Origin: an uncultured Candidatus Saccharibacteria bacterium
Lineage (GTDB): Bacteria; Patescibacteriota; Saccharimonadia; Saccharimonadales; UBA10212
DNA length: 64,000 nucleotides
Direction of reading: 5' to 3'
Assembly (NCBI GenBank): GCA_965231085.1
Contig: OZ246413.1
Coordinates: 411,234 to 475,233, forward strand
Below, piece after piece: positions 1,386-57,834 of this stretch. A model generated the notes under the pieces. It saw only the letters and a list, made by a program, of their open reading frames with translations, was not told the origin of the DNA and did not search any database. The translations under genes and the position numbers were made by a program. Position 1 is the first letter of the stretch. Every line of letters begins with the position of its first letter.

Positions 1386-2576
1386 GTGAATATGAGCAAC
1401 ACAAAAAGACGTGTTTTGATTCTTGGGGGTGGTTTTGGGGGCACCAAAACAGCGCTAGATTTAGCCAAAGACAACAACTTTGAAGTCAGCCTAATTAGTG
1501 ACCATACGGATTTTAGATACTACCCCACACTTTATCGAACAGCAACCGGTGGTGATTCTTCTGCCTCCTCAATCCCTTTAAGCGAGATATTCCAAGACAA
1601 AAATGTCAAAGTTATTAAAGACAAAGCAATATCCATAGACCGAGCTAATAATCTAGTTAATTGCCTAAGCAAGAACTCATACCCTTACGACATATTGGTA
1701 ATCGCTCTAGGCGTAGTTACCAACTATTTTGGTATTAGGGGTTTGGAGAAATTTGCCTACGGAATCAAAAGCTTGGATGAGGCCAAAAAACTTCGCGCTC
1801 ATCTTCATGATTTGATAGCCGATGATAAAAAACCTGATTTAAATTACGTGATAATCGGGGGCGGGCCAACAGGGGTCGAGCTGGCCGGAGCTCTGCCTGA
1901 TTATCTTAAAGAAATAATGAGATCACACGGCGTGCCTAGCAAGACAGTGCACATCGATATCGTAGAAGCAGCGGCGCACCTGGTACCAAGAATGAATATA
2001 GGCTACTCCAGAGCTGTAGAGAAAAGGCTAAAAAAACTTGCGGTTAGGTTATTGCTAAAGAGGACTGTCGAAGCCGAGTCAGCCGAGTCGCTGATGGTCA
2101 GCGGCCACTCTATAAAAAGCCATACCGTGGTATGGACCGCTGGTGTTACTAATCACCCGTTCCTAAAAGCCAATGGTTTTATCTTAAACAATCACGGAAA
2201 AGTGGTAGTCGATAAGTACCTGCAAGCCGAGGACAACATTTACGTTATCGGTGATAATGCCGACACCCCATATTCCGGTATGGCCCAAACAGCGCTATAC
2301 GACGCAGTCTTTGTAAGCAAGAATATAAGGCGAGTTCATGCCGGGAAACAGTTGCATGCCTATACCCCAAAAAGGCCGGTTTACGTTACCCCCGCTGGAC
2401 GCAAGTGGGCCATTGTTCAATGGGGCCCAGTTCGATTATCTGGCCGAGTGGGCTGGTGGCTTAGAGACATTGCTGATTTTATTGCTTTTCACAGATTTGA
2501 ACCGTGGTGGAAGGCTAGCAGGCATTGGGTTGCTGAATTCGAAACAGAAAGCGAATGCCTCGTATGCAAAAAATGA
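1386..2576 (+). CDS. ndh: Type II NADH dehydrogenase (NDH-2) / FAD-dependent pyridine nucleotide-disulfide oxidoreductase
   Basis: N-terminal FAD Rossmann motif VLILGGGFGGTKTA and second dinucleotide fold VIIGGGPTGVELAG. Length (396 aa) and tryptophan-rich amphipathic C-terminus are typical of NDH-2. The track start is GTG at 1386; ATG at 1392 (MSNTKRR) is equally plausible. Confidence 0.85.
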   Translation: MNMSNTKRRVLILGGGFGGTKTALDLAKDNNFEVSLISDHTDFRYYPTLYRTATGGDSSASSIPLSEIFQDKNVKVIKDKAISIDRANNLVNCLSKNSYPYDILVIALGVVTNYFGIRGLEKFAYGIKSLDEAKKLRAHLHDLIADDKKPDLNYVIIGGGPTGVELAGALPDYLKEIMRSHGVPSKTVHIDIVEAAAHLVPRMNIGYSRAVEKRLKKLAVRLLLKRTVEAESAESLMVSGHSIKSHTVVWTAGVTNHPFLKANGFILNNHGKVVVDKYLQAEDNIYVIGDNADTPYSGMAQTALYDAVFVSKNIRRVHAGKQLHAYTPKRPVYVTPAGRKWAIVQWGPVRLSGRVGWWLRDIADFIAFHRFEPWWKASRHWVAEFETESECLVCKK

Positions 2577-3883
2577 ATCTCAGACGTAGTTTATTGCTAG
2601 GCTTTTTAGTTGCTAACTTATTGGCTGTGATATTCGGCTGGTGGCAAATCAGTGGTCAACATACGCATTCCCCAGCTCTCTGGTACATAGCGATTGGTCG
2701 ACTTAGCGGTCTAGTGGCTTCTATTACGGTACTAATTGAAATCCTAACTATGAGCCGCACACCAATTGTCGAAAACAACTTCGATATGGAAGAACTGACC
2801 TGGTTCCATAAAATAAATGGCTATCTAATGATCGGGTCTTTGACGGCTCACATCCTGTTCTTACTAGCAGGCTATGCCCTACTCGACAAAATATCTTGGT
2901 GGCACGAATTTGGGCAATTTAATTCAGGATTCTCGGACGTCTTAAATGCAACTATAGGCAGCGGCATATTTGTGGCAGCCGTTTTTGCCTCGATCAAAAT
3001 AGCTCGTAACAAACTGCCTTATCAGTGGTGGTATGCAGCTCATCTGACTTTATACCTAGCTATTGTTCTAACCTTCCCTCATATAATTAATAGTGGCGGG
3101 GATTTTATAGGTCACCCATTGTTTAGTTTCTACATGTGGGCAATTTACGGTGTCAGTTTGGGTCTTTTAGGAATTTACAGATTTTTGCGGCCTTTTTATT
3201 ACATGTACAAATACGATTTTCGAGTTCTCAGTTTTAATGCTGAAGCTAACAGAATTCATTCGGTTGTTATAGGTGGTAAAAACATTAGCAACTTCTCGTT
3301 CAGGCCAGGACAATTTGCGGTCTGGTGGTTCCTGATACCTGGTCTATGGTGGGAAGGTCATCCTTTTTCATTTTCGATAGCTCCTAACGGAAAAAATCTA
3401 AGACTGACCTTTAAGGAAAGCGGTGATTATACCTCTAGGTTAGCCAGCGGCTTAAAAGTAGGAGCCCGGGTTCTAGTCGATGGCCCACGAGGCATGTTTA
3501 CATCCCAGAGAGCCAACTCTGAAGAGGTGTTAATGATTGCAGGCGGCATAGGAGTAACTCCGATGCGAGCCATGGTAACCAGGCTACTTGACCAAGGTAA
3601 AAAGGTTACATTAATATACGCTGCTAAACGAGCCGGCGATATAGCTTTTTCGGCTGAGTTGAAAACTCTCAGCAAACAGCAAAGTTTGAAAGTAGATTAT
3701 TATATCGAAGATAAAACTGGTCGCTTAGAATCAGAGACCCTGGCGGCATACTTGCAGCCAGACCCCGTCCGTAAAACTGTATATATCTGCGGGCCACCTG
3801 CCATGATGGATTCCTTAAGGCAAGATTTAGAACAAATTGGCGTGCCAAAACAAAACATTTTGAGCGAAAGGTTCTCGTTCTAG
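2555..3883 (+). CDS. NOX/FRE-type flavocytochrome: ferric-reductase transmembrane domain (two bis-His heme sites) fused to FAD- and NAD(P)H-binding ferredoxin-reductase domain
   Basis: Six hydrophobic helices. His85-x13-His99 (WFHKINGYLMIGSLTAH) and His163-x12-His176 (AAHLTLYLAIVLTFPH) lie in separate helices. FAD motif HPFS at 269-272, NAD(P)H motif MIAGGIGVTP at 327-336, and CGPPAMM near the C-terminus. The start overlaps the ndh stop by 22 nt; alternative ATGs at 2564 and 2573. Confidence 0.85.
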   Translation: MPRMQKMNLRRSLLLGFLVANLLAVIFGWWQISGQHTHSPALWYIAIGRLSGLVASITVLIEILTMSRTPIVENNFDMEELTWFHKINGYLMIGSLTAHILFLLAGYALLDKISWWHEFGQFNSGFSDVLNATIGSGIFVAAVFASIKIARNKLPYQWWYAAHLTLYLAIVLTFPHIINSGGDFIGHPLFSFYMWAIYGVSLGLLGIYRFLRPFYYMYKYDFRVLSFNAEANRIHSVVIGGKNISNFSFRPGQFAVWWFLIPGLWWEGHPFSFSIAPNGKNLRLTFKESGDYTSRLASGLKVGARVLVDGPRGMFTSQRANSEEVLMIAGGIGVTPMRAMVTRLLDQGKKVTLIYAAKRAGDIAFSAELKTLSKQQSLKVDYYIEDKTGRLESETLAAYLQPDPVRKTVYICGPPAMMDSLRQDLEQIGVPKQNILSERFSF

Positions 3884-4554
3884 CTTTTATAGGCGATCAT
3901 TTTATAATCTGGATGGCCTGCGATATATTTAGTCGCTAAATTACCCATAACAAAGCAGGCGGTCGCCAGAACATCGGCCATAATAATATCGGGTCCGATT
4001 ATCGAAACACTACTCCAGTAGTCAGCCGGTTGCTTAGTTTTTGGATTAATAAGGTGCCTCCCTCTTTCATAATTGCCGCTCGTTGCTACGGCTTGATCAC
4101 GGAGTTCAACAACTTGTCTAATATTCATGCTATCTGCGGGGTCTTGGATACCTATACGCCAAGTCTTATCCCCCTTTGCTAATATATCGCCGCCAGCACT
4201 TATGCAGAAGGTATTCTGCCCTGATTGTTCAAGTTTTTTGGCAGCTTTAGCTATTGCCCAGCCCTTAATATAACCGTTGGCGTCAAACCGACCTGCTGCC
4301 ATCGCCGAAAAATAACCATTGGTATACCTTTTAGCCCGCTCGCAGTCTTTCAATATTTCTCTGAGTTCCGGGCTGAGATTATTATTCAGTTCGCCTCGTA
4401 TATACATAGATACTTGGCTGTCCGGTTTGTAATTACTAAAGTTCTCGTCAATCCGCTCAAATTCTAAAAAAACGAGATTAAAATAATTTTGATCTTCACA
4501 GTCGGGGATATCAACACTAATCGGCATCCCCATTATCTGAGCTACTCTGCGCAT
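3880..4554 (-). CDS. apbE: FAD:protein FMN transferase (ApbE family), short form without signal peptide
   Basis: ApbE core motifs: IMGMPISVDI (MGT-type start of the domain), TSGNYERG, and ADVLATACFVMG (metal/FAD-binding ADALxTA-type motif). The start lies 1 nt downstream of the FMN-binding protein gene. Only 224 aa, with no N-terminal hydrophobic segment. Confidence 0.8.
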   Translation of the reverse strand: MRRVAQIMGMPISVDIPDCEDQNYFNLVFLEFERIDENFSNYKPDSQVSMYIRGELNNNLSPELREILKDCERAKRYTNGYFSAMAAGRFDANGYIKGWAIAKAAKKLEQSGQNTFCISAGGDILAKGDKTWRIGIQDPADSMNIRQVVELRDQAVATSGNYERGRHLINPKTKQPADYWSSVSIIGPDIIMADVLATACFVMGNLATKYIAGHPDYKMIAYKS

Positions 4555-4555
4555 T

Positions 4556-5011
4556 TTAAACTCGAGCTTGGTCTAGGGCAGACTGAAGAGACTGCTGATA
4601 AGATTCACTAGTACTAGTAGCGCCAGATACAAAGTCGATATTAGCGCTCTGTTTTGATATTGTTGATTGCTTGAGCAGTGGCTGGCACATACGGCTAATC
4701 ATCATTGATCTTCCCATATCACTGGGCATCTGCAGGAAATTAACGTCGCTAATTTTTCCGCCACTAACAACAACTGCAACCTGGACCGTCCCGTAAGGAT
4801 TATCGAAACTTGAACCGGTAAAAGTACCGTCCTTGTAGCTAGAGCTGTTGCTCGTTGACGGCTGGTTGGAGGCTACACTATTTCCGACCGCTCCTGCAGA
4901 ATTGGTTGACGACGTCGAAATAGTAGTGTTGCTGCCGCTTTTATTTTTAACAACTAGGCCTATGCTGCCAATAATGGCAATCGTAAATACGATAACTAAA
5001 CTTTTCTTCAT
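4556..5011 (-). CDS. Signal-anchored extracytoplasmic FMN-binding domain protein (ApbE substrate, PplA-like)
   Basis: N-terminal KK plus hydrophobic anchor (MKKSLVIVFTIAIIGSIGLVV), an S/T/N-rich linker, then an FMN_bind-type domain with flavinylation motif D-F-V-S-G-A-T (Thr132). Confidence 0.8.
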   Translation of the reverse strand: MKKSLVIVFTIAIIGSIGLVVKNKSGSNTTISTSSTNSAGAVGNSVASNQPSTSNSSSYKDGTFTGSSFDNPYGTVQVAVVVSGGKISDVNFLQMPSDMGRSMMISRMCQPLLKQSTISKQSANIDFVSGATSTSESYQQSLQSALDQARV

Positions 5012-5017
5012 CTATCT

Positions 5018-5023
5018 ATTATA
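5018..5023 (-). promoter_or_regulatory. Candidate -10 box (TATAAT) 6 nt upstream of the FMN-binding protein ATG; possible leaderless transcript
   Basis: The minus strand reads AGGTATAATAGATAG-ATG. No convincing Shine-Dalgarno lies between the box and the ATG, and no good -35 was found. Confidence 0.3.
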
Positions 5024-5056: not shown

Positions 5057-5089
5057 AAAAAACGAGGCTGCTCAATTTGCGCAGCCCCG
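5057..5089 (-). terminator. Rho-independent terminator after the DUF378 gene (heliorhodopsin-DUF378 unit)
   Basis: The minus strand reads CGGGGCTGC-gcaaattga-GCAGCCTCG followed by TTTTTT: a 9-bp stem with one G:U pair. The plus strand is also followed by a T-run, so it could work in both directions. Confidence 0.6.
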
Positions 5090-5114: not shown

Positions 5115-5327
5115 TTACTTGTTGCCTTTGCCCATCATCATGACCATGCCGTACAAGCTCCATACAGCTGCTAGGCCAACGATATCGTAAACAACTTTGG
5201 CCCCGGTAGAACCTACACCAAAGATTTTGTCTACTAAATTATAGTCAAAGAACCCGACTAAGCCCCAGTTTAAGGCACCGATTGTTACCAGTAGCCATGA
5301 GACCTTATCTGCTGCGTTCATTTCCAT
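5115..5327 (-). CDS. DUF378 family small membrane protein
   Basis: 70 aa with two TM helices. The motif LLVTIGALNWGLVGFFDYNLVDKIFG is characteristic of DUF378. Confidence 0.7.
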   Translation of the reverse strand: MEMNAADKVSWLLVTIGALNWGLVGFFDYNLVDKIFGVGSTGAKVVYDIVGLAAVWSLYGMVMMMGKGNK

Positions 5328-5398
5328 TTTGGATTTCTCCTTAAAGTTGTTAATAACTTAAGCATAAGCCTAATTAATATTAATGTCTACAACATTTT

Positions 5399-6193
5399 TT
5401 AGTTAGTTAAGGCCCCAGCGAATACCTGCCAAGCCAGGGCTGATTTAGCTACCAAGCTTAATATCATATATACCTTTTCACCGTACATGTAATCAGCCCA
5501 CCGCCCTATCTTTTTGTATTGTAAAAACATATTGATTGCAAAGCAGTTAAAGAACACAAATAGGGTTACATATATCCAATAAACAAAGCTTGGTATCTGG
5601 CCTAACCCGTAGTGGCTAGAGCCCCAAAAGTACAAGGCAATAACCGCCCACGGCATGATGCCAGCCAAACAACCAATTTTAAAAGCCAGCCAGTTAGTTT
5701 TTTCAGTCGTTTGGTTATGAACTTCCATGACTAGCCCCATTAAGTTCATTACTGCCGTAAATATAAAGATCATGGCTAGCACTCCAAGATCCCATAACCC
5801 CGACAGAAGTCCGATGGCCACCATCATAGTGCTGGCGCTCAGTGCATATTCAAACCACCTTGCTTTGTTGAGGCCCTTCTTCAGATTATTCTCATACGAT
5901 CTACGATAGATTGTCGCAATAACTAGATGAGCTAGAGCGCTTAGAAAAAAGAAGCCGGCCACCAGATAGGCAATGTTCACACTAAATACATGGTGCTGGG
6001 CCTGTACTAAATCTGGCATTTTACCAGTTATTGCTAGCTGGGCCGGGTCCTTAACGGTTAAGTAGGTAGTATGGACTGCCTGCACCCCGTGACCTGGTTT
6101 TGCTAAAGCCAAAATTGCAAAGCCTTGGACAGCATGCAAAAAGCCCATGAATATATTAAACTTCCTTAAACCTTTGAACGTAACTTTTGACAT
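5399..6193 (-). CDS. Heliorhodopsin
   Basis: 264 aa, 7 TM. Long collinear similarity, recalled from memory, to heliorhodopsin 48C12: FMGFLHAVQGFAILALA, ARWFEYALSASTMMV (counterion Glu), WLAFKIGCLAGIMPWAVIALYF, FVFFNCFAINMFLQYKKIGRW, and the near-identical retinal-lysine helix YMILSLVAKSALAWQVF (Lys250). Confidence 0.9.
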   Translation of the reverse strand: MSKVTFKGLRKFNIFMGFLHAVQGFAILALAKPGHGVQAVHTTYLTVKDPAQLAITGKMPDLVQAQHHVFSVNIAYLVAGFFFLSALAHLVIATIYRRSYENNLKKGLNKARWFEYALSASTMMVAIGLLSGLWDLGVLAMIFIFTAVMNLMGLVMEVHNQTTEKTNWLAFKIGCLAGIMPWAVIALYFWGSSHYGLGQIPSFVYWIYVTLFVFFNCFAINMFLQYKKIGRWADYMYGEKVYMILSLVAKSALAWQVFAGALTN

Positions 6194-6343: not shown

Positions 6344-7168
6344 ATGTCAATTAGCAACAAAAACCAGTCCGGTATTGCCCATTTAATGATAATCATTGGG
6401 TTAGTAGTTATTGCGGTTATCGCAGCCGTAGCCTGGAAGGTTAGTTCTTCAAAATCAACAACTACCGTAGCCTCCAAAGCTGTTCAGTCGGCCTGCGAAA
6501 AAGAAATAAACGATAAAAACTTCTGTAAATTTGCCGCCAGCTTTACTTTAAATACGTCGTACGAGGCAACCATTACGACTGTTGATACAGCCGGTGCCAC
6601 TTCCTCTATGACAATGCAGTCCGATACTAAAAACAATAGCTCAATAGTCTCAAGAGCCGATGGCAAGGAAACCGCCGCCTATGTAAGCTTAGATGGCGAC
6701 ACGTACTTTAAGGACGAGTCAACTGGATCATGGACGAAAATAGCTGGCGACAAAACCAAGCCAACTGTTACTAGCCCAACCAGCGATATTAAAATTGACA
6801 CTACCGACTTAACCGCTAAGAACACCACGACTTACAAATATCTATCCAAAGAAAAATGTGGTAGCTTGAATTGCTTTAAATATCAGATAGTCGATACTGC
6901 CGCCACAGGTACTACGCAGTACATTTGGTTTGATGATAAAAATTATCAAATGCAAAGATGGTACTCAAAGGACGCTAACGGTTCTACAGATATGAGTTTT
7001 ACTTACAAATCTATAAAAATTTCAGCCCCCTCACCAGTAAGTGATACTTCGGCTTCAGACGCTGCAGCGCTTCAAGCAGCACAAGCTGCTGCTGCCGCTC
7101 TTAACAGCGCCGCCTCTAATACAGATACGACGACCACTGACACCACCAGCACAGACACTACTCAGTAG
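6344..7168 (+). CDS. Membrane-anchored secreted protein of unknown function with Thr/Ala-rich low-complexity C-terminus
   Basis: N-terminal anchor GIAHLMIIIGLVVIAVIAAVAW, a Cys-containing globular middle region, and a C-terminal AALQAAQAAAAALNSAASNTDTTTTDTTSTDTTQ tail. No recognised family. Confidence 0.5.
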   Translation: MSISNKNQSGIAHLMIIIGLVVIAVIAAVAWKVSSSKSTTTVASKAVQSACEKEINDKNFCKFAASFTLNTSYEATITTVDTAGATSSMTMQSDTKNNSSIVSRADGKETAAYVSLDGDTYFKDESTGSWTKIAGDKTKPTVTSPTSDIKIDTTDLTAKNTTTYKYLSKEKCGSLNCFKYQIVDTAATGTTQYIWFDDKNYQMQRWYSKDANGSTDMSFTYKSIKISAPSPVSDTSASDAAALQAAQAAAAALNSAASNTDTTTTDTTSTDTTQ

Positions 7169-20530: not shown

Positions 20531-21247
20531 TCAAATTCCACTAACGTGAAATAAAACGCCTATACCATAGGTCACTATCATCGCCATCGCTCCTCCAAGC
20601 ACAACTCTGACGATTGCCGGACGTACTGGCGCTTTGCCAACTTTCGCGCTTAATGCTCCCGTAATAAACAGTGCGACTATAACTGATATGAACGTTGCCG
20701 GAAGTCTTAGGTTCGCAGGCGGTAATAAAATTGTAATAATTGGTAGCGCTGAACCTATCAGAAATGAAATTGCGGAAGCAATTGCGGCATTCCAGGGGCT
20801 AGCAAGTTCATTGGGGTCAATTTTAAGCTCCGCCTCAGCATGAGCTGCAAAATCGTCATGCTTGGTTAATTCCTGAGCAACTAATGTTGCCGTCGAATGG
20901 TTCAATCCTTTTGCCTGATATATTTTGATTAGTTCCGCTTCTTCCATGTCGGGGTAATGTTTAAGTTCGAATTTTTCCTTGGCCAGTAAGGCTTTTTCCG
21001 TATCTCGCTGGCTACTAACCGAAACATACTCTCCAGCAGCCATGGAAATGGCCCCCGCCACAACACCCGCCACACCGGCAGTTAATATTGCTGATTTAGA
21101 TGCTTCCGCCCCAGCGACGCCCACAACAAGGCCTGATATCGAGACAATCCCATCGTTTGCTCCCAAAACTGCTGCTCTGAGCTTATTGAGCTTGGCTCCA
21201 GTTCTTTCACCGTGAACTTCTAGAATGTCATGTTTATTTTTTACCAT
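20531..21247 (-). CDS. VIT1/CCC1 family iron/manganese transporter
   Basis: LGANDGIVSISGLVVGVAGA, GEYVSVSSQRD, a cytoplasmic helical metal-binding segment and C-terminal TM helices. Confidence 0.8.
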   Translation of the reverse strand: MVKNKHDILEVHGERTGAKLNKLRAAVLGANDGIVSISGLVVGVAGAEASKSAILTAGVAGVVAGAISMAAGEYVSVSSQRDTEKALLAKEKFELKHYPDMEEAELIKIYQAKGLNHSTATLVAQELTKHDDFAAHAEAELKIDPNELASPWNAAIASAISFLIGSALPIITILLPPANLRLPATFISVIVALFITGALSAKVGKAPVRPAIVRVVLGGAMAMIVTYGIGVLFHVSGI

Positions 21248-25147: not shown

Positions 25148-26188
25148 ATGAATAAAATTAATAAGCATATTGAGATAGTCCGCTCTACCGAAAAAGGTTT
25201 GAGCTCTATTAGTGTTAACTCAAGCCATCATTTGGTCCAAGCTCTCTCAAACCATTATCAAACAGTCGGAATCTCAATTATCAACAACCTGAGCGACCTT
25301 GATAAACTTGTGGAATTAAAACCCGATCTTGTTTTTCTGGGCATTAATTTTTTACCAAGAAATCAGAAACTAGGACTCCTCGATAACGACAAAATTTGGG
25401 TAACCGATTATCTTGAGGAACATGGTATTGCCTATACTGGGTCTGCTCGAATTGCTCACGAACTAGAGATAGATAAATCAATAGCCAAGCGTTTAGTTGC
25501 AAGTGTCGGGCTTAGAACTTCGCCATTTTTTATTATCACAACCGACCAATCTAGGGGTAAAACCGACCCCGCTCTAACTTTCCCTGTATTTATTAAACCA
25601 ACCAGCCGAGGTGGGGGTTTAGGAATAGATAGTAAATCTAAGGTCAATAATCACGATGAGCTTTGGGCAAAAGTTAGCTCGATTGCCTCAACCTATAACT
25701 CTGACTCTATTATAGAAAGCTACTTGCCAGGCCGGGAGTTCACTGTTGCTATCCTTAAAAATGTTGGCCTAGCAACTTATTCTGTTATGCCATTAGAGCT
25801 TATAGCCGTTGCTGACGAAAATGGCGATCGTATACTAAGCAATCAGGCCAAGAAAGACGACACCGAATCTGCTATTGCGATTACAGACGCCAGTCTAAAG
25901 CTTGAACTATCCAAATTCGCACTTGATGTTTTTACGTTAATTAATGGGCGAGACTTTGGACGTATAGATATTCGCTTGGACGAGTTGGGTCGGCCAAATT
26001 TCTTGGAAGCAAATCTTATCCCAAGCTTAACTCCTGAGTTTGGCAACTTCCCTAAAGCCTGCGCTTTAAACATTGGGCTAGATTACGAATCAATGGTATT
26101 AAGAATTATCAGCCTGGCATTCGACCGCTACACAGACAAGAGCCCAAAGAAAGTTGAAACTATCAACTTGTCTTCGGTTTTAGCCTAG
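25148..26188 (+). CDS. ATP-grasp enzyme of the D-Ala-D-Ala ligase family (divergent paralog)
   Basis: FPVFIKPTSRGGGLGIDSKSKV and GRIDIRLDELGRPNFLEANLIPSLTP match Ddl-type ATP-grasp motifs. It lacks the canonical N-terminal GGxSxEHEVS segment that the ddl at 39080..40249 has. Confidence 0.65.
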   Translation: MNKINKHIEIVRSTEKGLSSISVNSSHHLVQALSNHYQTVGISIINNLSDLDKLVELKPDLVFLGINFLPRNQKLGLLDNDKIWVTDYLEEHGIAYTGSARIAHELEIDKSIAKRLVASVGLRTSPFFIITTDQSRGKTDPALTFPVFIKPTSRGGGLGIDSKSKVNNHDELWAKVSSIASTYNSDSIIESYLPGREFTVAILKNVGLATYSVMPLELIAVADENGDRILSNQAKKDDTESAIAITDASLKLELSKFALDVFTLINGRDFGRIDIRLDELGRPNFLEANLIPSLTPEFGNFPKACALNIGLDYESMVLRIISLAFDRYTDKSPKKVETINLSSVLA

Positions 26189-27697: not shown

Positions 27698-28297
27698 TTA
27701 ACTAGTTAAGCGTTTTTCTACTTCGTCCCAGTTAATCAGCTTCCAGAAAGCTTCTATATAGTCCGGTCGTTTGTTTTGATATTTCAAATAGTAGGCATGC
27801 TCCCAAACATCCAGCCCCAGTAGCGGCGTTTTGCCCTCCATTAGCGGACTGTCTTGGTTAGCTGTTGAGTAAATTCCATACTGGTCACCGCTTTTAACTA
27901 ACCAAGCCCAACCAGAACCAAAGCGACTCGTTGCGGCATCGCTAAATAGTTTCTTGAATTCTTCAAAACTTCCAAATTTGGAATTAATAATTTCTGCCAC
28001 CTTGTCAGTCGGTTCATTAGCGCCACCAGGTGTTATAGTTTTCCAAAACATTGTGTGATTAGCGTGGCCGCCGCCGTTATTTTGTACGGCTGTGCGTACT
28101 TCTTCGGGCACGTTTTTAATATCGCCTAAAATTTCCTCAATGGATTTTGTTTGCCAATCTGGATACTTTTCTAGAGCTGTATTTAATTTATCTACGTATG
28201 CTTGGTGATGCTTGGAATAGTGAATCTCCATAGTCTTGGCATCTATATGTGGCTCAAGCGCGGCATAGTCAAAACCTAGTTCTGGTAATGTAAACAT
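27698..28297 (-). CDS. sodA: Fe/Mn superoxide dismutase
   Basis: [22 protein letters not shown], and [18 protein letters not shown]. Confidence 0.95.
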
Positions 28298-36470: not shown

Positions 36471-39083
36471 ATGCCTACTCAATTTCAAAAAATAAAATCA
36501 CTGGCACGAAAGATCTACTCAAGAGCGGATCGCTACGTAGCTAGGCTAGCCAGTCTGCAACATGCACCAAAATATGCATACGCTAGTCTGTTTGTACTGC
36601 TTGCCACCACCGTTTTTTGGTCAATCTTAGGTGGATCAGTACACCAAAGTAATGCCGATCAAATAGTTAATAGCTACCTATTTAGCGGAAATGACACTTT
36701 TCATAATTCTCAACTTCCCGGGGCACATACATTCTTAATAAAATGGCCGCTATTTTATTTAGTTGATCTTTTTAGGTCAAGTAGTGGAGCCCTTTTGGCG
36801 CTGACCATTATTGCGGCTACTCTTACTGTCGGTTTTATGGCACTCATTATTTATCGAATAGAAAAGCGCCCGTTGGTTTTTGGAACTATATGTTTAGCAC
36901 TGGCTAGTGTGCTCTTGATGGTACCGGCCGAACCGATGGCCGGAACACTATTGCCGCTCAACATGGCTATGTTGGCCACTCGCAATCTTGAGTATATTTT
37001 GTTTATTTTTGGGCTAGTGCTAATTTTTAGATCGCCTCGAATACGTAGCCGGTCCTTTTATCTCGGCGTTATCACACTAGGTGTGCTAATGGCTAGCGAT
37101 AAGCTCTTCCTAACGCTAGGAGCCGGTGGTGCATTAATTGCCTTAATTATTTACTCTCTCGCTAAAGGTTGGAGTCTAGTAAGTCTTTCTGCTAATTGGC
37201 TGGTTGGCACCGTATTAGCCTACCTTGTCGGCCTTACTTGTTTGTGGGCTATTCAGACTTCCAAACTTGTTCATATTATTGGCCAGAGTAATGCCAGCCC
37301 CTACTCAATAGTTACTAGTATTCATGCCTTGGTGCTCGGTGTTATATATGGGCTTTCGGCCTTGTTTACTAACTTTGGAGCCAATCCGGCTTATGACACA
37401 TCTGTGCTTAAAAATGTCCCCAGTGCGAGTCTGCATCGTCTTTTCTCTGTGTCCGGCCCAGCTTACATCATCAACTTTCTTATATTGATAGTCATTGTTG
37501 TAGCAATATGGAAACTAATCCAAACCAGCCTCAAGCACAACAAAGACGGCTCTCTGAGTATGGACCTGCCTGCAAAACTTTCTACGTCATTAATTTGGAT
37601 TAGTTTAGCTGGGTTTATCAGTTTTGTTGCATCCAAACATTACTACGCTGCTGATGCCAGGTATTTAACCATCTTCTTATTCACTGGTTTTTTTGCTGCC
37701 ACAACCGTTTTTAGAAAAGTTAATCTGGACAGTAAAAAACTCGTGTGGGCAGGGGTGGTTTTAGTTGCAGCTATCGGCTTTGGCATTGCCAGCGCTTCAG
37801 GAACCTACCGCAGTGAGATGAAATCAACATCCGAATTGAAGAGTCGCGATATCTTAGTTTCAAAAGCCTTAAGTCAGCACACGGTAAATAGTCTTGTTGG
37901 TGATTACTGGCGAGTTGTACCAGCTAGAGTTTATATACCAAAATCTATTAACGTTCTACCCCTGTCTAGCTGTACCTCCCCTCGAACAATACTTACTAGT
38001 ACATCGTGGCAGCGTGATCTATCTAAAGTAAGTTTTGCCTATCTTTTGAACTTAGAAAAAAGCCAAACCGATTTCCCGTCCTGTACTCTTGATCAAATTA
38101 TTGCAGCCTATGGGCGACCTAACGCCAGCGCCCTAATTGCAGGTACGCAAGATAGCCCTCAGGAGATATTGTTGTTTTATGATAAAGGTGCCAATAGTAG
38201 TTCACCAAATGTAGTACTAAAAACTCCAAGCACTATCCTGCCTGTCCCGCTCTCAGAGTTGCCCTACACCAGCTGCCCAACCGGCAAAACCATCATGAAT
38301 ATATCAGCCCATCAGGACGACGATCTGCTATTCATGAACCCAGACACTTTACATTCCTTGCAAGCTGGTGATTGTATTAGAGCAGTCTATTTAACTGCTG
38401 GCGACGCTGGTAACAATCAGCTCTATTGGCTCGGTCGAGAGCAAGGTTCCGAGGCAGCTTATGCCACCATGGAGGCCACCGATAACATTTGGGTAAAAAG
38501 AATTGTACGCCTAAATGACAAAGAGTTCATTAACGCTTCACATCCACGCGGAGATTACAAAACTAGCATAATATTTTTTAGGCTACCTGACGGTAATCTT
38601 AAGGGCCAGGGCTTTAGGCAATACCTATACGAAAGCCTGGCACAGCTAAATAGTGGCAAGATTAGTAGTCTTACTTCAGTTGACGGTCAGTCCACATACA
38701 CCAAGGATCAACTTGTAAGTGCCTTGTCAGAACTAATGAAGGTCTACGGTGTATCTGAAGTTCGAACCCAAAGTAGTTATGTAAGCAAGCAATACCCAGA
38801 TCACAGCGACCATATAGCCTCAGGCCAGCTTGCAACTCTGGCTAAGAATCTCTACGAAAAAAATTCTTTTGAAAACACAATTCCAATCCCAATTCACTTT
38901 TACACTGGTTACCCGGTACGCGAACAGCCAGCAAATATTAGCGGTTCTGACTTGATTGCCAAGGAAGCAATATTTCTCTCATACGCTAAGTTTGATAAAT
39001 CAGTTTGTCAAAATCACGTAGAATGCTCCGGCGTTTTGACCTACGGCTCCTACCTATCTCGCCAGTACGAAAAACCAAATTAG
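36471..39083 (+). CDS. Fusion protein: polytopic GT-C-like membrane domain + central domain + C-terminal PIG-L/LmbE-family deacetylase domain
   Basis: About 12 TM helices in the first 450 aa or so. From about nt 38290 the sequence reads NISAHQDDDLLFMNPD (AHPDDE-like), YLTAGDAG, and YPDHSDHIASG (HxDH zinc motif), all typical of PIG-L/LmbE N-acetylglucosaminyl deacetylases. Confidence 0.6.
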   Translation: MPTQFQKIKSLARKIYSRADRYVARLASLQHAPKYAYASLFVLLATTVFWSILGGSVHQSNADQIVNSYLFSGNDTFHNSQLPGAHTFLIKWPLFYLVDLFRSSSGALLALTIIAATLTVGFMALIIYRIEKRPLVFGTICLALASVLLMVPAEPMAGTLLPLNMAMLATRNLEYILFIFGLVLIFRSPRIRSRSFYLGVITLGVLMASDKLFLTLGAGGALIALIIYSLAKGWSLVSLSANWLVGTVLAYLVGLTCLWAIQTSKLVHIIGQSNASPYSIVTSIHALVLGVIYGLSALFTNFGANPAYDTSVLKNVPSASLHRLFSVSGPAYIINFLILIVIVVAIWKLIQTSLKHNKDGSLSMDLPAKLSTSLIWISLAGFISFVASKHYYAADARYLTIFLFTGFFAATTVFRKVNLDSKKLVWAGVVLVAAIGFGIASASGTYRSEMKSTSELKSRDILVSKALSQHTVNSLVGDYWRVVPARVYIPKSINVLPLSSCTSPRTILTSTSWQRDLSKVSFAYLLNLEKSQTDFPSCTLDQIIAAYGRPNASALIAGTQDSPQEILLFYDKGANSSSPNVVLKTPSTILPVPLSELPYTSCPTGKTIMNISAHQDDDLLFMNPDTLHSLQAGDCIRAVYLTAGDAGNNQLYWLGREQGSEAAYATMEATDNIWVKRIVRLNDKEFINASHPRGDYKTSIIFFRLPDGNLKGQGFRQYLYESLAQLNSGKISSLTSVDGQSTYTKDQLVSALSELMKVYGVSEVRTQSSYVSKQYPDHSDHIASGQLATLAKNLYEKNSFENTIPIPIHFYTGYPVREQPANISGSDLIAKEAIFLSYAKFDKSVCQNHVECSGVLTYGSYLSRQYEKPN

Positions 39084-40249
39084 AATTGTTTTAAGAAGTT
39101 TGTATCAAAAACTGTCGTTTTGCTTTGTTGGCTAGTCCATCGCTGCTTTGCCAAATCTATCAAATCCTCAACTAATTGAATATTCGAAACACCTGTCTTG
39201 TTCCAGTTATGTGAATACAGGCTACCTGGCAAAGTATTAACTTCATTAAAATAAACTTTACTTGCTTTGGTATCAATTAACATATCAACCCTGGCAATGC
39301 CCTCGCAGCCTAGGGCCCTATAAACGCTTAACCCCAGTTTTTCAGCCTGTTTATATAAACTATCAGGCAACTTAGCTGGGAGTTCACTATAGCCTTGAGC
39401 TCCGCGTTTGCCGCTCTTGCCCGCGCCTTTTTTACCGCCGTTAATATATTTTTTATCAAAATCGAAATACTCATCATCGCTCGTTAATGGATGTTCTAGA
39501 AATGCTGGCTTAAGCGTTTGATTACCCATTATCGGCAGTGTTACTTCGTATAAGTTCTGCACGGACTGCTCAACAATAATGCGCTCATCATAAACCAGAG
39601 CGACTTCAATAGCGTTTTGCAACTCAACCAAACTTCCAACTTTAGAAATGCCAATGCTAGAACCTAGGTGTGCCGGCTTAACAAATAGTGGATAGTTTAG
39701 TTTTGATGTAATTCTTTTTAGTATTTCTTTGCTGTTATCGACATAATCGGCACTAGTGAACCAATCCCATGCTGGTGTAGGTACCCCAGCACTAGTACTA
39801 ACCTGTTTGGCTAGAACTTTGTCCATGGCAACTGCACTGGCGCTAACACCGCAACCAACATATGGAACGTTCGCCATTTCAAAAATTGCCATTAATTCTC
39901 CGTCTTCGCCATGAGTCCCATGGGTTGCCGGAAAGGCGATGTCAATTCTAACCCTGTTTCTTTTGCCCTTTTGCAACACTAAACCATTTTGAAAAATAAG
40001 CTTCACTGGTTCGGCTTTTTTAAGGTAATCATCTATTTTCCCTGAACTATAAAGCGCGATTTCACCCAGCTTATCATCCATAAACCATTGGCCATCTTTC
40101 GCGATATAAACTGGTATAACAGTATATTTTCGTGTCAATTTAAGTGGCACTATTATAGCTGCAAGCGCAGTCACGATTGAAACATCATGTTCGGCGGAAC
40201 GGCTGCCAAAAAATACGCCAACGGTTGGTTTACTCATACCTTTAAGCAT
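39080..40249 (-). CDS. ddl: D-alanine--D-alanine ligase
   Basis: VGVFFGSRSAEHDVSIVTA, HGTHGEDGELMAIFE, YPLFVKPAHLGSSIGISKV, ARVDMLID...VYFNEVNTLPG. Confidence 0.9.
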   Translation of the reverse strand: MLKGMSKPTVGVFFGSRSAEHDVSIVTALAAIIVPLKLTRKYTVIPVYIAKDGQWFMDDKLGEIALYSSGKIDDYLKKAEPVKLIFQNGLVLQKGKRNRVRIDIAFPATHGTHGEDGELMAIFEMANVPYVGCGVSASAVAMDKVLAKQVSTSAGVPTPAWDWFTSADYVDNSKEILKRITSKLNYPLFVKPAHLGSSIGISKVGSLVELQNAIEVALVYDERIIVEQSVQNLYEVTLPIMGNQTLKPAFLEHPLTSDDEYFDFDKKYINGGKKGAGKSGKRGAQGYSELPAKLPDSLYKQAEKLGLSVYRALGCEGIARVDMLIDTKASKVYFNEVNTLPGSLYSHNWNKTGVSNIQLVEDLIDLAKQRWTSQQSKTTVFDTNFLKQF

Positions 40250-51055: not shown

Positions 51056-51143
51056 TGGTGGGCGAGGAGGGACTCGAACCCTCAAGGCTTATTCAGCCAA
51101 CAGATTTTAAGTCTGTCGCGTATACCGGTTCCGCCACTCGCCC
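51056..51143 (-). tRNA. tRNA-Leu (anticodon TAA)
   Basis: The minus strand reads GGGCGAG...ACAGA-CTTAAAA-TCTGT, a long variable arm, GAGGG-TTCGAGT-CCCTC-CTCGCCC-A-CCA. Confidence 0.9.
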
Positions 51144-51154
51144 AAGTAATGCAT

Positions 51155-51228
51155 TGGAGGCGCCTACCGGAATTGAACCGGTGTAAAAGGATTTGCAGTC
51201 CTCTGCGTAACCACTCCGCCAAGGCGCC
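51155..51228 (-). tRNA. tRNA-Cys (anticodon GCA)
   Basis: The minus strand reads GGCGCCT...GAGGA-CTGCAAA-TCCTT...ACCGG-TTCAATT-CCGGT-AGGCGCC-T-CCA. The U73 discriminator is typical of tRNA-Cys. Confidence 0.9.
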
Positions 51229-51242
51229 ATGAACTGATATAG

Positions 51243-51272
51243 ATTATACTAGAATCAGGTAGTATTTGTTCA
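51243..51272 (-). promoter_or_regulatory. Promoter candidate for the minus-strand tRNA-Cys/tRNA-Leu pair
   Basis: On the minus strand: TGAACA (51272-51267), 18-nt spacer, TATAAT (51248-51243), 14 nt upstream of the tRNA-Cys 5' end. Confidence 0.45.
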
Positions 51273-51297
51273 CTCTTAGAAGGAATGTTTTGCTTTA

Positions 51298-51326
51298 TTG
51301 AGCATTACTTCTTATTTTGTTATAAT
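51298..51326 (+). promoter_or_regulatory. Sigma70-type promoter of the plus-strand four-tRNA cluster
   Basis: TTGAGC (51298-51303), 17-nt spacer, TATAAT (51321-51326), 12 nt upstream of the tRNA-Gly 5' end. Confidence 0.6.
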
Positions 51327-51338
51327 TTACCCTGTTAT

Positions 51339-51415
51339 GCGGGTGTAGCTCAGTTGTTTAGAGCGCGTCCTTGCCAAGGACGAGGCCAAGGGTTAGAGTC
51401 CCTTTACCCGCACCA
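51339..51415 (+). tRNA. tRNA-Gly (anticodon GCC), with unusual D-loop/T-loop
   Basis: GCGGGTG-TA-GCTC-AGTTGTTTA-GAGC-G-CGTCC-TTGCCAA-GGACG-AGGCC-AAGGG-TTAGAGT-CCCTT-TACCCGC-A-CCA. The T-loop reads TTA rather than TTC, and the D-loop has GT where GG is expected. Confidence 0.8.
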
Positions 51416-51420
51416 AGTTT

Positions 51421-51496
51421 GGCTCTTTAGCTCAGTTGGTAGAGCAGAGGCCTGAAGAGCCTTGTGTCCCCAGTTCGAGTCTGGGAGGAGCCACCA
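51421..51496 (+). tRNA. tRNA-Phe (anticodon GAA)
   Basis: GGCTCTT...GAGGC-CTGAAGA-GCCTT...CCCAG-TTCGAGT-CTGGG-AGGAGCC-A-CCA. Confidence 0.9.
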
Positions 51497-51510
51497 GTAA
51501 ATTATCTTGC

Positions 51511-51595
51511 GGGCAAGTGGTGAAATTGGTATACACGCAGCCTTGAGGTGGCTGTGCCGCAAGGTGTGGAGGTTCAAGTCCTCTCTTGCCCACCA
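51511..51595 (+). tRNA. tRNA-Leu (anticodon GAG)
   Basis: GGGCAAG...CAGCC-TTGAGGT-GGCTG, a long variable arm, GGAGG-TTCAAGT-CCTCT-CTTGCCC-A-CCA. Confidence 0.9.
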
Positions 51596-51603
51596 TGAAG
51601 TTC

Positions 51604-51680
51604 GGGCGCTTAGCTCAGTTGGCTAGAGCATCTCGTTTACACCGAGAGGGTCGGGGGTTCGAGTCCCTCAGCGCCCACCA
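51604..51680 (+). tRNA. tRNA-Val (anticodon TAC)
   Basis: GGGCGCT-TA-GCTC-AGTTGGCTA-GAGC...TCTCG-TTTACAC-CGAGA...TTCGAGT...AGCGCCC-A-CCA. Confidence 0.9.
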
Positions 51681-56221: not shown

Positions 56222-57733
56222 TTAACTGCCATCAGATAAGTGCTGCTTAATTAGTGAGGCAAGCTTAGGCCCAACTACCTCTGATAAATCTTCTTCTGTC
56301 GCTTCCATAACACCCCGCGCGGAACCGAAAGATCTTATTAACTTTTTCCGGGTCGCCGGCCCTACCCCCGGGATATCGTCCAGAATACTGCTAGTTGCCC
56401 GTGTTCGTTTTAAGTTAGTATGGTAGCTCACAGCAAAACGATGAGATTCATCCCGGATCCTTTGCAATAATTTAATGAGGTTGGATTTTTCGGGCAATGA
56501 AAGAGTCACGAAATCATCTGTTTCTGTAATAATCCCGGCGTTTGCTTTAACTGCGTTAACTATGAGCTCATAAGGTCTATCAATAAAACTAAGAGATTTA
56601 TGAATAATCAAATCTTCGTGGCGTTTGGCCAGACCAACCATTGGGATATTGGACATCCCCAGTTCATCCCGGGCTGCTAGAGCAGCGCTTAACTGGCCTT
56701 TGCCACCGTCGATCAATATAAAATCTGGGAATCCCCACTTCCTAACATTCTCGTCCCGAAATCGACGTTTCAGAACTTCCGCCATATGAGCAAAGTCATT
56801 GTTACCTGCAACCCTTAGTTTGAACTTACGATAAGCCGTTTTGTAAGGAAGCCCATCAATAAAAACTACCATGCTGGCAACATTGTCCGTACCTTGCATG
56901 TGACTAATATCAAAACCCTCAACTCTTTTTGGCGACTTATCAAGACAAAAGATGTTGGCAAATTCTTTCAATGCGGCGTCTCGACTGGCATCTATAATTT
57001 CTCGATCACTAAATAATATTTGGCGGTTGAGTTCGCGAATTGCGAATAACTGATTCCTCAGCCTTGCGGCTTCCTCGTAACGTTTGTTGCGAGCAGCTTT
57101 TTTCATTTCTCTTTCAATTTCACGAACAATAGCCACTCTCTCGCCCTTAAAATATTGCTTCAGTTTTTTTAGATTAGCCCGATAATCTTCTAGGCTAGTC
57201 TTTCCTTCTTCGAGGCCCGGGTCGAGACCTAAATGATAATGCAGACTAACTCTTTTGCCGATTGCGGGTTTAGATATGGCAAACGGAAACGCCCGGCGCA
57301 AATATCTAAGCGCTTTTTTAACTTCAACACCACTAATATATGGTCCAAAATATTCTGCCCTGTCGTCGAGCGGCCGCCTTACAGTTGTAACCGTTGGGTA
57401 ATCACTTTTTGAATCAACTCTTATGTATATATTAGACTTATCGTCACGCAGCAAAATGTTAAATCTGGGCATATAACGCCGAACCAGCTCCGCCTCCAGA
57501 AATAGCGCGTCGGCTTCGGTTTCAACTTCGGTCCAGTCAATATCTTGTATCTCGCTAACTAAAACATCTGTTTTAGGATCATGATAGCGACTTTTTTGAA
57601 AATATTGTCGTACTCGATTACGTAAATTTGCAGCCTTGCCAATATAAATAATTTCACCGTTTTTATCCTTGTGAAAATAAACACCAGGTGTTGTCGGCAG
57701 CTTCTTTAATTTAGCTTCAATTTTGCTTATCAT
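56222..57733 (-). CDS. uvrC: Excinuclease ABC subunit C
   Basis: GIY-YIG domain (PGVYFHKDKNGEIIYIGKAANLRNRV), UVR motif (YEEAARLRNQLFAI), endonuclease domain, and C-terminal (HhH)2 (IPGVGPATRKKLIRSFGS). ATG at 57733 is preferred; the track start at 57805 adds 24 non-conserved residues. Confidence 0.9.
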   Translation of the reverse strand: MISKIEAKLKKLPTTPGVYFHKDKNGEIIYIGKAANLRNRVRQYFQKSRYHDPKTDVLVSEIQDIDWTEVETEADALFLEAELVRRYMPRFNILLRDDKSNIYIRVDSKSDYPTVTTVRRPLDDRAEYFGPYISGVEVKKALRYLRRAFPFAISKPAIGKRVSLHYHLGLDPGLEEGKTSLEDYRANLKKLKQYFKGERVAIVREIEREMKKAARNKRYEEAARLRNQLFAIRELNRQILFSDREIIDASRDAALKEFANIFCLDKSPKRVEGFDISHMQGTDNVASMVVFIDGLPYKTAYRKFKLRVAGNNDFAHMAEVLKRRFRDENVRKWGFPDFILIDGGKGQLSAALAARDELGMSNIPMVGLAKRHEDLIIHKSLSFIDRPYELIVNAVKANAGIITETDDFVTLSLPEKSNLIKLLQRIRDESHRFAVSYHTNLKRTRATSSILDDIPGVGPATRKKLIRSFGSARGVMEATEEDLSEVVGPKLASLIKQHLSDGS

Positions 57734-57834
57734 TTCAGCTATAAGCCTATCAGGGAAATAAAAGGTTTGCCAACAGATTAGATAATCTGTTAAACTGCTT
57801 ATCAATAACTAATACTAGAAAGGAGCGGCAAACC

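What the first reader, a model, noticed from the sequence alone, without database searches (positions are those of the whole stretch)
5115..6193. Heliorhodopsin gene paired with a DUF378 gene, next to the electron-transfer cluster, with no retinal biosynthesis gene in 64 kb
The 264-aa protein is collinear with heliorhodopsin 48C12 as I recall that sequence. The retinal-lysine helix is almost identical (SLVAKSALAWQ, Lys250) and the counterion Glu sits in RWFEYALSAS. A 70-aa DUF378 membrane protein lies 71 nt downstream, and a good intrinsic terminator (5057-5089) closes the pair. This suggests a two-gene transcription unit separate from the FMN/ApbE unit.

Heliorhodopsins are not known to pump ions, and their function is largely unresolved. 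They are reported mainly from monoderm prokaryotes. No blh, crt or other retinal-synthesis gene appears in this window, so the chromophore may have to be scavenged.

The position between a NOX-like oxidoreductase cluster and a secreted protein gene raises the untested idea of a link between light sensing and redox or oxidative-stress handling.
Basis: partly seen in the sequence, partly recalled or inferred. Interest (0 to 1): 0.7.

Follow-up and report, generated by a model that had tools for sequence, protein, structure and literature searches.

The report
Heliorhodopsin paired with DUF378 membrane protein
This is an ordinary, intact heliorhodopsin (light-sensor) gene in a Saccharibacteria-like genome, but the tiny DUF378 membrane-protein gene next to it is a recurring partner in related bacteria, which gives a testable lead on what these unexplained photoreceptors act on.

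Summary
Window 5399-6193(-) encodes a 264-aa heliorhodopsin (Pfam E=8e-91) with the retinal Lys (K250), SxxxK Ser (S246), counterion Glu (E115) and both His residues. It is closer to TaHeR (51% identity) than to 48C12. DUF378 (5115-5327) lies 71 nt downstream, and a strong terminator sits at 5057-5089.

The organism is most likely a Saccharibacterium (CPR). HeRs, missing retinal synthesis and an oxidative-stress hypothesis are already published for that group, so those parts are not new.

The pairing is lineage-restricted but not coincidental.
- Only 1 of 80 species-representative HeR loci has DUF378 nearby.
- DUF378-linked HeRs fall in three separate HeR clades and two gene orders.
- In a large sister clade the order is DUF378->HeR, with a 10-18 nt gap or an overlap, and the flanks are unrelated.
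- Contig-length matching gives 14/50 for that clade against 0/64 for other HeRs.

DUF378 keeps its own conserved promoter and persists in close relatives that lack HeR. The best reading is that HeR regulates or partners with a pre-existing small stress-type membrane protein. The link to the FMN_bind/ApbE/NOX cluster holds only in this lineage. I found no paper reporting a HeR-DUF378 association.

The parts
5399..6193 (-). Heliorhodopsin gene (264 aa). Key residues are H20, H89, counterion E115, S246 and retinal Lys K250.
   Evidence: ORF. Pfam PF18761 at E=8e-91. TaHeR 6is6 at E=3.5e-73, 51% identity. The key residues are invariant in 26 relatives.
5361..5389 (-). Conserved DUF378 promoter inside the HeR-DUF378 spacer. 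The -35 box TAGACA is at 5389-5384, followed by a 17-nt spacer and the -10 box TATGCT at 5366-5361. It starts 9 nt after the HeR stop codon.
   Evidence: The promoter scan scored it 9/12. The same -35/-10 and leader are conserved upstream of DUF378 in HeR-less relatives L087 and L090 and across clade-B loci.
5337..5342 (-). Shine-Dalgarno AAGGAG of the DUF378 gene, 9 nt before its ATG.
   Evidence: Read directly from the sequence. It is conserved in the alignments.
5115..5327 (-). DUF378/YuzA-family gene (70 aa). It has two uncharged hydrophobic segments (about residues 10-27 and 46-64) and the conserved NWGLVG...YNLV..FG motif.
   Evidence: ORF. Pfam PF04070 at E=4.3e-19. Alignment of 43 homologues. 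Charge profile.
5057..5089 (-). Intrinsic terminator closing the HeR/DUF378 transcripts. It has a 9-bp GC-rich core stem (12 bp with flanking A-U/G-U pairs) followed by U6.
   Evidence: Fold of -24.5 kcal/mol, z=-3.5, with 1 of 200 shuffles folding as well. Sequence.

Best explanation
The locus encodes a functional, non-pumping heliorhodopsin of the TaHeR type in a Saccharibacteria-like (CPR) genome. It must load scavenged all-trans retinal.

**Transcription**
The HeR gene has no terminator of its own. HeR transcripts therefore run into the downstream DUF378 gene and stop at the hairpin at 5057-5089. DUF378 is also transcribed from its own conserved promoter.

**Proposed function**
DUF378 is a small two-helix membrane protein. 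Its B. subtilis homologue YuzA belongs to the SigB general-stress regulon. I propose it is the membrane partner or target of HeR in these bacteria. On illumination, HeR would bind DUF378 in the membrane and modulate whatever it does. This is the same logic already shown for HeR with glutamine synthetase, photolyase and an ABC transporter.

**Shown versus inferred**
- Shown: family membership and key residues of both proteins, the transcript layout signals, and recurrent, order-variable, flank-independent HeR-DUF378 linkage in relatives.
- Inferred: physical interaction, light dependence, and the activity of DUF378.
For: **Identity of HeR**
- establish family, nearest structure and key residues.

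**Linkage**
- The closest relative (82% identity) keeps HeR->DUF378->FMN_bind.
- Clade B has DUF378->HeR. The gap is 10-18 nt in L086, L096, L098, L152, L171 and L176, and the genes overlap by 16 nt in L170.
- L084/L085 have DUF378->NmrA-like->HeR. L046 has DUF378->HeR in a third HeR clade.
- Two of four HeR-seeded, unbiased clade-B picks have the pair.
- 14 of 50 clade-B HeRs share an exact longest-contig length with a listed DUF378, against 0 of 64 other HeRs (Fisher p=3e-6).
- The flanks of nine pair-bearing loci share no homologous ORF within 3 kb, apart from one weak NUDIX hit.

**Asymmetry that fits a regulator and its target**
- DUF378 often occurs without HeR: L087-L091, L174 and L175, and 77 of 80 DUF378-seeded loci.

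**Transcript layout**
- There is a conserved DUF378 promoter and no terminator between the two genes.

**Literature**
- Precedents for HeR regulating products of adjacent genes: PMC9529153, PMC9769723, PMC11109279.
- YuzA is in the SigB regulon: PMC10948285.
- Saccharibacteria lack blh, and TaHeR takes up external retinal: PMC9296517.
Against: - 79 of 80 species-representative HeR loci have no DUF378 within 6 kb. The partnership is at best clade-specific.
- In the window's own lineage DUF378 has its own promoter, and in HeR-less relatives it stays put next to the FMN_bind cluster. This instance could be a neutral juxtaposition.
- DUF378 neighbourhoods are otherwise very diverse.
- There is no fusion, co-variation, interaction or expression evidence.
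- The count of truly independent juxtaposition events is small, about three.
- The clade tree is a simple NJ tree.
Confidence: 0.45

Rival explanations
1. Coincidental or historical adjacency. HeR is a stand-alone photosensor that landed, or survived, upstream of an independent monocistronic DUF378 gene. The two products do not work together in this lineage.
For: - DUF378 has its own promoter and leader, conserved in HeR-less relatives.
- L087-L091 keep DUF378->FMN_bind->ApbE without HeR and with no HeR remnant.
- 79 of 80 GTDB HeR loci lack DUF378.
- HeR neighbourhoods in Saccharibacteria are mostly housekeeping synteny.
Against: - Same-strand adjacency recurs in three HeR clades and two gene orders.
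- Clade B shows spacing typical of tight coupling with totally different flanks.
- Contig-length matches are 14/50 against 0/64.
- No terminator separates HeR from DUF378 in the window.
Confidence: 0.3
2. DUF378 belongs functionally to the neighbouring flavin-based electron-transfer cluster (FMN_bind, ApbE, NOX-like ferric reductase, NDH-2). HeR then acts as a light or oxidative-stress input to that redox module.
For: - DUF378 sits next to FMN_bind->ApbE<-NOX<-NDH-2 in the window, in L082 and in HeR-less L087-L091.
- Parts of the cluster lie within 6 kb of HeR in L025, L029 and L041.
- An MsrA-like gene lies upstream of HeR in 17 of 80 loci.
- The oxidative-stress hypothesis is published (PMC8612252, PMC9166423).
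Against: - A strong terminator lies between DUF378 and FMN_bind.
- The cluster is near DUF378 in only 2 of 80 DUF378-seeded loci, both from the window's lineage.
- 3 of 80 HeR loci with parts of the cluster is close to chance expectation.
- None of the clade-B pairs has this cluster nearby.
Confidence: 0.12
3. DUF378 is an accessory for chromophore handling, such as uptake or delivery of scavenged retinal or carotenoid to HeR, rather than a regulated target.
For: - The organism lacks retinal synthesis in the window, and Saccharibacteria lack it generally (PMC9296517).
- An NmrA/SDR-like NAD(P)-binding gene is inserted between DUF378 and HeR, or sits directly before HeR, in L084 and L173. That would fit retinoid redox chemistry.
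- A 2025 preprint proposes that HeRs acquire exogenous carotenoid antennae (10.1101/2025.11.27.691015).
Against: - DUF378 is widespread in organisms and loci without any rhodopsin.
- TaHeR binds external retinal unaided (PMC9296517).
- There is no lipid-binding or transporter signature in a 70-aa hairpin.
Confidence: 0.08

Closest known systems
TaHeR, heliorhodopsin of Thermoplasmatales archaeon SG8-52-1 (PDB 6is6, 7u55; 7clj has Asp at the counterion position)
   Same: - 51% identity over 245 aligned residues, E=3.5e-73.
- The same His/His/Glu/Ser/Lys set.
- A nearly identical helix-7 sequence, SLVAKSALAWQVFAG.
- The host also lacks retinal synthesis and must scavenge retinal (PMC9296517).
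   Different: - The host is bacterial (CPR).
- The loop after TM1 (about residues 32-66) is longer by 7+3 residues, and there is a 5-residue insertion near residue 190.
- No biochemical data exist for this protein.
- No DUF378 partner has been reported for TaHeR.
Heliorhodopsin 48C12 (PDB 6su3/6su4), the founding HeR from a freshwater actinobacterial fosmid
   Same: It is collinear, with the same family motifs. The window's H20 aligns to H23 of the 48C12-like chain 9ljj, and the helix-7 SLVAKSALAWQ motif is shared in that alignment.
   Different: It is clearly more distant than TaHeR (E=2e-42 against 3.5e-73).
HeR 'regulatory helper' operons: AbHeR-glutamine synthetase, TfHeR-photolyase, OcHeR-OmrDE ABC transporter, and the ten operon groups of Cho et al. 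2024 (PMC11109279)
   Same: HeR is co-oriented and probably co-transcribed with a neighbouring gene whose product has a HeR-independent function. The partner also occurs widely without HeR.
   Different: - DUF378 is not among the ten published partner groups (GS, NAD synthetase, photolyase, MerR, TerC, ABCT, SDR, alpha/beta hydrolase, DUF2177, DUF2238).
- Neither 'DUF378' nor 'YuzA' appears in that paper's supplements.
- The partner here is a 70-aa two-helix membrane protein of unknown activity.
Sensory rhodopsin-transducer pairs (SRI/HtrI, SRII/HtrII)
   Same: A photoreceptor gene sits adjacent to a gene for a partner with two transmembrane helices.
   Different: - DUF378 has no HAMP or signalling domain.
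- There is no sequence relationship.
- HeR has inverted topology.
- This is an analogy only.
YuzA of Bacillus subtilis (DUF378/COG2155)
   Same: Same Pfam family. It is a small membrane protein and a member of the SigB general-stress regulon (PMC10948285).
   Different: Its function is unknown there as well. B. subtilis has no HeR. No solved structure exists for the family.

Membership tests
Heliorhodopsin (Pfam PF18761) | Full-length match to the family profile above the curated threshold | tested here: met
   304 bits against a cut-off of 26.7, profile positions 1-242 of 242.
Heliorhodopsin (Pfam PF18761) | Retinal Schiff-base lysine in helix 7 within an SxxxK motif | tested here: met
   S246 and K250 in SLVAK align to the corresponding TaHeR Ser and Lys. 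Both are invariant in 26 relatives. SLVAK is the commonest CPR HeR motif (PMC9166423).
Heliorhodopsin (Pfam PF18761) | Single Glu counterion in helix 3 (E107 in 48C12, E108 in TaHeR) | tested here: met
   E115 in RWFEY aligns to the Glu that is Asp in PDB 7clj. It is invariant.
Heliorhodopsin (Pfam PF18761) | Conserved His pair of the proton-accepting group (H23 with H80 or H82) | tested here: met
   H20 and H89 align to the TaHeR His pair and are invariant.
Heliorhodopsin (Pfam PF18761) | Seven transmembrane helices with inverted topology (N-terminus inside) | not tested
   Inferred only from 51% identity to a solved HeR. No topology prediction was run.
Heliorhodopsin (Pfam PF18761) | Binds all-trans retinal, has a slow photocycle and does not pump ions | not testable with these tools
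   This needs expression with retinal, spectroscopy and a transport assay.
DUF378 / YuzA (Pfam PF04070) | Profile match above threshold, about 60-70 aa, with two hydrophobic helices | tested here: met
   68.6 bits against a cut-off of 25. There are two uncharged segments, and the NWGLVG and YNLV motifs are invariant in 43 homologues.
HeR regulatory operon (HeR plus adjacent target gene) | Same-strand adjacency with no terminator between the genes, conserved in relatives | tested here: met
   Met within clades A and B and in L046. Not met across Saccharibacteria HeRs at large, where only 1 of 80 loci has it.
HeR regulatory operon (HeR plus adjacent target gene) | Physical binding of HeR to the partner and light-dependent change of its activity | not testable with these tools

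The most novel reading that the evidence does not exclude
DUF378 is a dedicated integral-membrane partner of heliorhodopsin in Saccharibacteria. HeR and the two-helix DUF378 protein would form a membrane complex through which light controls a stress-related membrane function. That would give the first function for the widespread DUF378/YuzA family and the first small-membrane-protein effector for a HeR. Preferential placement of HeR beside DUF378, in either order, would reflect selection for co-expression.
Probability: 0.3. Interest if true: 0.65.

Novelty: new variant of a known kind. Interest (0 to 1): 0.45.

Why it matters
Heliorhodopsins are abundant, but their function is known in only a few cases, each found by following the neighbouring gene. 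Saccharibacteria are tiny epibionts with very few genes to spare and carry many HeRs.

A recurrent HeR-DUF378 module gives a concrete, cheap two-protein system to test, by co-expression, pull-down and light-dependent assays. It also attaches the first functional handle to DUF378/YuzA, a widespread family of unknown function.

The HeR itself, the missing retinal pathway and the oxidative-stress idea are not new.

Tried and rejected
- **HeR remnant in HeR-less relatives.** I searched the 930-bp gene-free stretch upstream of DUF378 in L087, L090 and L091 with tblastn. Nothing scored better than E=0.2, so there is no evidence of recent HeR decay there.
- **Conserved partners of DUF378.** I clustered the neighbours of 80 DUF378-seeded loci. 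No dominant partner emerged: RRM protein 6, TetR-like 4, metallophosphoesterase 4, HeR 3, MsrA 3.
- **Solved structure for DUF378.** None was found, even at E<=1 with a profile.
- **Literature on DUF378/YuzA.** There were 0 papers for 'heliorhodopsin'+'DUF378'. The 13 papers mentioning DUF378 were all incidental. A plain 'yuzA' search was swamped by author names. Adding 'Bacillus subtilis' and 'regulon' gave only SigB-regulon and sporulation-list mentions.
- **Organism name.** Cluster look-up of the exact proteins returned no name or accession. Taxonomy therefore rests on the names of HeR and DUF378 homologues and of GTDB contigs.
- **HeR+DUF378 co-folding.** I considered it but did not run it.
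- **Wider taxonomic test.** I could not test adjacency in Actinobacteria, Chloroflexi, Firmicutes or archaea.

Full report
**1. What is in the sequence**

On the minus strand, ORF 5399-6193 encodes 264 aa and ORF 5115-5327 encodes 70 aa. The first matches Pfam Heliorhodopsin over the whole profile (E=8e-91, 304 bits). The second matches DUF378 (E=4.3e-19).

The genes are 71 nt apart. DUF378 has a strong Shine-Dalgarno sequence (AAGGAG, 5342-5337). Downstream, at 5089-5057, a 9-bp GC-rich stem (12 bp with flanking pairs) is followed by six U. The 75-nt region folds at -24.5 kcal/mol, z=-3.5.

The consensus terminator scan did not list this hairpin because its loop is longer than that scan allows.

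**2. The heliorhodopsin**

The best solved relative is TaHeR (6is6) at E=3.5e-73, with 51% identity over 245 aligned residues. The 48C12 entries score E=2e-42.

- E115 (RWFEY) aligns with the Glu that is Asp in PDB 7clj.
- K250 and S246 (SLVAK) align with the Schiff-base Lys and the SxxxK Ser.
- H20 and H89 align with the two conserved His.
- All five residues are invariant in an alignment of 26 relatives.

I did not test topology or pigment formation. Both are inferred from homology.

**3. Organism and prior knowledge**

Every named close homologue of the HeR and of the DUF378 protein comes from Candidatus Saccharibacteria/Saccharimonadales or another CPR group.

- HeRs are already documented in this group: 80 occurrences in Saccharimonadia, with SLVAK as the commonest motif (PMC9166423).
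- Saccharibacteria with rhodopsins lack blh and are thought to take retinal from hosts, and TaHeR binds external retinal quickly (PMC9296517).
- The idea that HeRs mitigate light-induced oxidative stress is published (PMC8612252; PMC9166423).

The Pfam sweep of the window found no carotenoid-cleavage, phytoene synthase or desaturase, lycopene cyclase or type-1 rhodopsin family. That is true but expected, and 64 kb cannot speak for the genome.

**4. Is the HeR-DUF378 pairing conserved?**

*From the HeR side.* Among 80 HeR loci from species-representative genomes (51-63% identity; mostly Saccharibacteria, plus Dojkabacteria, WWE3 and Woykebacteria), only L046 has a DUF378 gene within 6 kb. There it lies upstream of HeR on the same strand.

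*Closest relative.* The HeR at 82% identity keeps HeR->DUF378->FMN_bind.

*From the DUF378 side.* Three of 80 metagenomic loci seeded with DUF378 have HeR immediately downstream, 14-17 nt away.

*Look-ups of individual proteins:*

| Locus | Arrangement |
|---|---|
| L086 | DUF378->HeR, 18-nt gap |
| L084/L085 | DUF378->NmrA-like->HeR |
| L170 | DUF378->HeR, 16-nt overlap |
| L171 | DUF378->HeR, 10-nt gap |
| L176 | DUF378->HeR, 16-nt gap |
| L172 | HeR without DUF378 |
| L173 | NmrA-like->HeR, no DUF378 |
| L174, L175 | DUF378 without HeR |

*Phylogeny.* An NJ tree of 87 HeRs puts the DUF378-linked ones in three separate clades:
- A: the window and L082, order HeR->DUF378.
- B: a clade of 261-aa proteins, order DUF378->HeR.
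- C: L046.

Clade B is large. About 50 of the 120 best database hits to the window's HeR belong to it.

*Proxy for co-residence.* I matched the 'longest contig' lengths reported for HeR and DUF378 clusters. 14 of 50 clade-B HeRs match a listed DUF378, against 0 of 64 HeRs outside clades A and B (Fisher p=3e-6). This is a lower bound, because both lists are truncated.

*Flanks.* Nine pair-bearing loci share no homologous ORF within 3 kb on either side, apart from one weak NUDIX match. The pair therefore persists or moves as a unit and is not just part of a syntenic block.

**5. Asymmetry and transcription**

In close relatives of the window's lineage (DUF378 at 80% identity), the same DUF378->FMN_bind->ApbE<-NOX-like<-NDH-2 arrangement exists without HeR, and no HeR remnant is detectable.

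The DUF378 upstream region is conserved between HeR-containing and HeR-less loci and between clades A and B. It has a -35 box (TTGCTA or TAGACA), a 17-nt spacer, a -10 box TATGCT and a similar leader up to the SD. In the window this promoter (5389-5361) begins 9 nt after the HeR stop codon, and no terminator lies between the genes.

- In clade B, HeR is driven from the DUF378 promoter as a bicistron.
- In the window, HeR sits upstream of that promoter. Its transcripts must read through DUF378 to the terminator at 5057-5089, while DUF378 can also be made alone.

DUF378 is thus the more stable gene, and HeR, when present in these clades, tends to sit beside it. This is the pattern expected if HeR modulates a protein that has its own function. 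That was shown experimentally for HeR with glutamine synthetase (PMC9529153), photolyase (PMC9769723) and an ABC transporter (PMC11109279).

**6. What DUF378 may be**

It has two uncharged hydrophobic segments and an invariant NWGLVG...YNLV..FG motif. More positive charge sits on the termini than on the loop, a weak indication of N-in/C-in topology. No solved relative exists.

B. subtilis YuzA, the family's namesake, is a hub gene of the SigB general-stress regulon (PMC10948285). Its other neighbourhoods are diverse. Its activity remains unknown, and the proposed mechanism (light-dependent binding by HeR) is inference.

**7. The redox-cluster idea**

The FMN_bind/ApbE/NOX-like/NDH-2 genes (1386-5011) are separated from the pair by the terminator.
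- They accompany DUF378 only in the window's lineage: 2 of 80 DUF378-seeded loci.
- Parts of the cluster lie within 6 kb of HeR in only 3 of 80 loci, near the roughly 1 expected by chance.
- An MsrA-like gene upstream of HeR in 17 of 80 loci is compatible with the published oxidative-stress theme. It was not annotated with a profile here.

**8. Novelty**

I found no paper mentioning heliorhodopsin together with DUF378. DUF378 is not among the ten published HeR operon groups, nor in that paper's supplements.

The HeR is a new member of a known kind. The HeR-DUF378 module is a new, clade-restricted variant of the known theme of HeR plus an adjacent target.

**9. Verdict**

Interest is moderate (0.45). 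The gene itself and the retinal and redox remarks are ordinary or already published. The recurrent HeR-DUF378 linkage is real, unreported as far as I could search, and directly testable.

Noticed in passing
window 1386-5011: A cluster of an NDH-2-like Pyr_redox_2 gene (1386-2576,+), a NOX-like Ferric_reduct+FAD+NAD protein (2555-3883,+), ApbE flavin transferase (3880-4554,-) and a membrane-anchored FMN_bind protein (4556-5011,-). It looks like a flavinylation-dependent extracytosolic electron-transfer module. It is conserved with DUF378 in HeR-less relatives L087-L091.
   Followed up: partly
window 5018-5023 and 5011: A perfect TATAAT box ends 6 nt before the ATG of the FMN_bind gene, and there is no Shine-Dalgarno sequence. 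This suggests a leaderless or near-leaderless transcript starting just after the HeR/DUF378 terminator.
   Followed up: no
L084 5282-6157; L085 1215-2090; L173 3070-3990: An NmrA/3beta-HSD/epimerase-like NAD(P)-binding gene sits directly upstream of clade-B HeRs (10-14 nt gap). In L084 it lies between DUF378 and HeR. It may correspond to the published 'SDR' HeR operon group. It could be a retinoid oxidoreductase in organisms that scavenge chromophore.
   Followed up: no
L001-L080 (e.g. L067 5449-5976): An MsrA-like gene (GGGCFWC motif, about 175 aa) lies upstream of HeR on the same strand in 17 of 80 Saccharibacteria HeR loci. A RumA-like 420-aa gene lies just downstream in 17 of 80. The MsrA link fits the oxidative-stress hypothesis. 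The annotation is by motif only.
   Followed up: partly
upstream of DUF378 in L086, L096, L098, L152, L170, L171, L176, L174, L087, L090 and window 5328-5398: The DUF378 promoter and about 35 nt of 5' leader (TATGCTTAAAGTAT..AAATAAC..AACAAAGG) are conserved across loci whose HeRs are only ~60% identical and whose flanks are unrelated. That is unusually strong non-coding conservation and could hide a regulatory element.
   Followed up: partly
window 27698-28297, 20531-21247, 56222-57805, 62024-64000: Fe/Mn superoxide dismutase, a VIT1 iron transporter, UvrC and UvrA are all in the same 64 kb. A FUR gene and a Zip transporter lie just outside the window on the same contig (L081). These are light- and oxidative-damage-related genes but are not linked to the HeR locus.
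   Followed up: no
window 25148-26188 and 39080-40249: There are two D-Ala-D-Ala ligase-family genes. The first matches only the C-terminal domain.
   Followed up: no
window 51059-51677: A cluster of six tRNA genes, two on the minus strand and four on the plus strand.
   Followed up: no
window 6344-7168: A 274-aa Thr/Ser-rich protein with an N-terminal membrane anchor, transcribed divergently from HeR. It has no Pfam family and no homologue in any of the 169 related loci examined at that point. It is lineage-specific.
   Followed up: partly
L172 5167-6997: One clade-B HeR locus without DUF378 carries an LRR-Ser/Thr kinase and a WhiB-like gene just downstream. WhiB is typical of Actinobacteria, so the taxonomic assignment of that contig, or gene transfer between host and epibiont, may deserve a look.
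   Followed up: no
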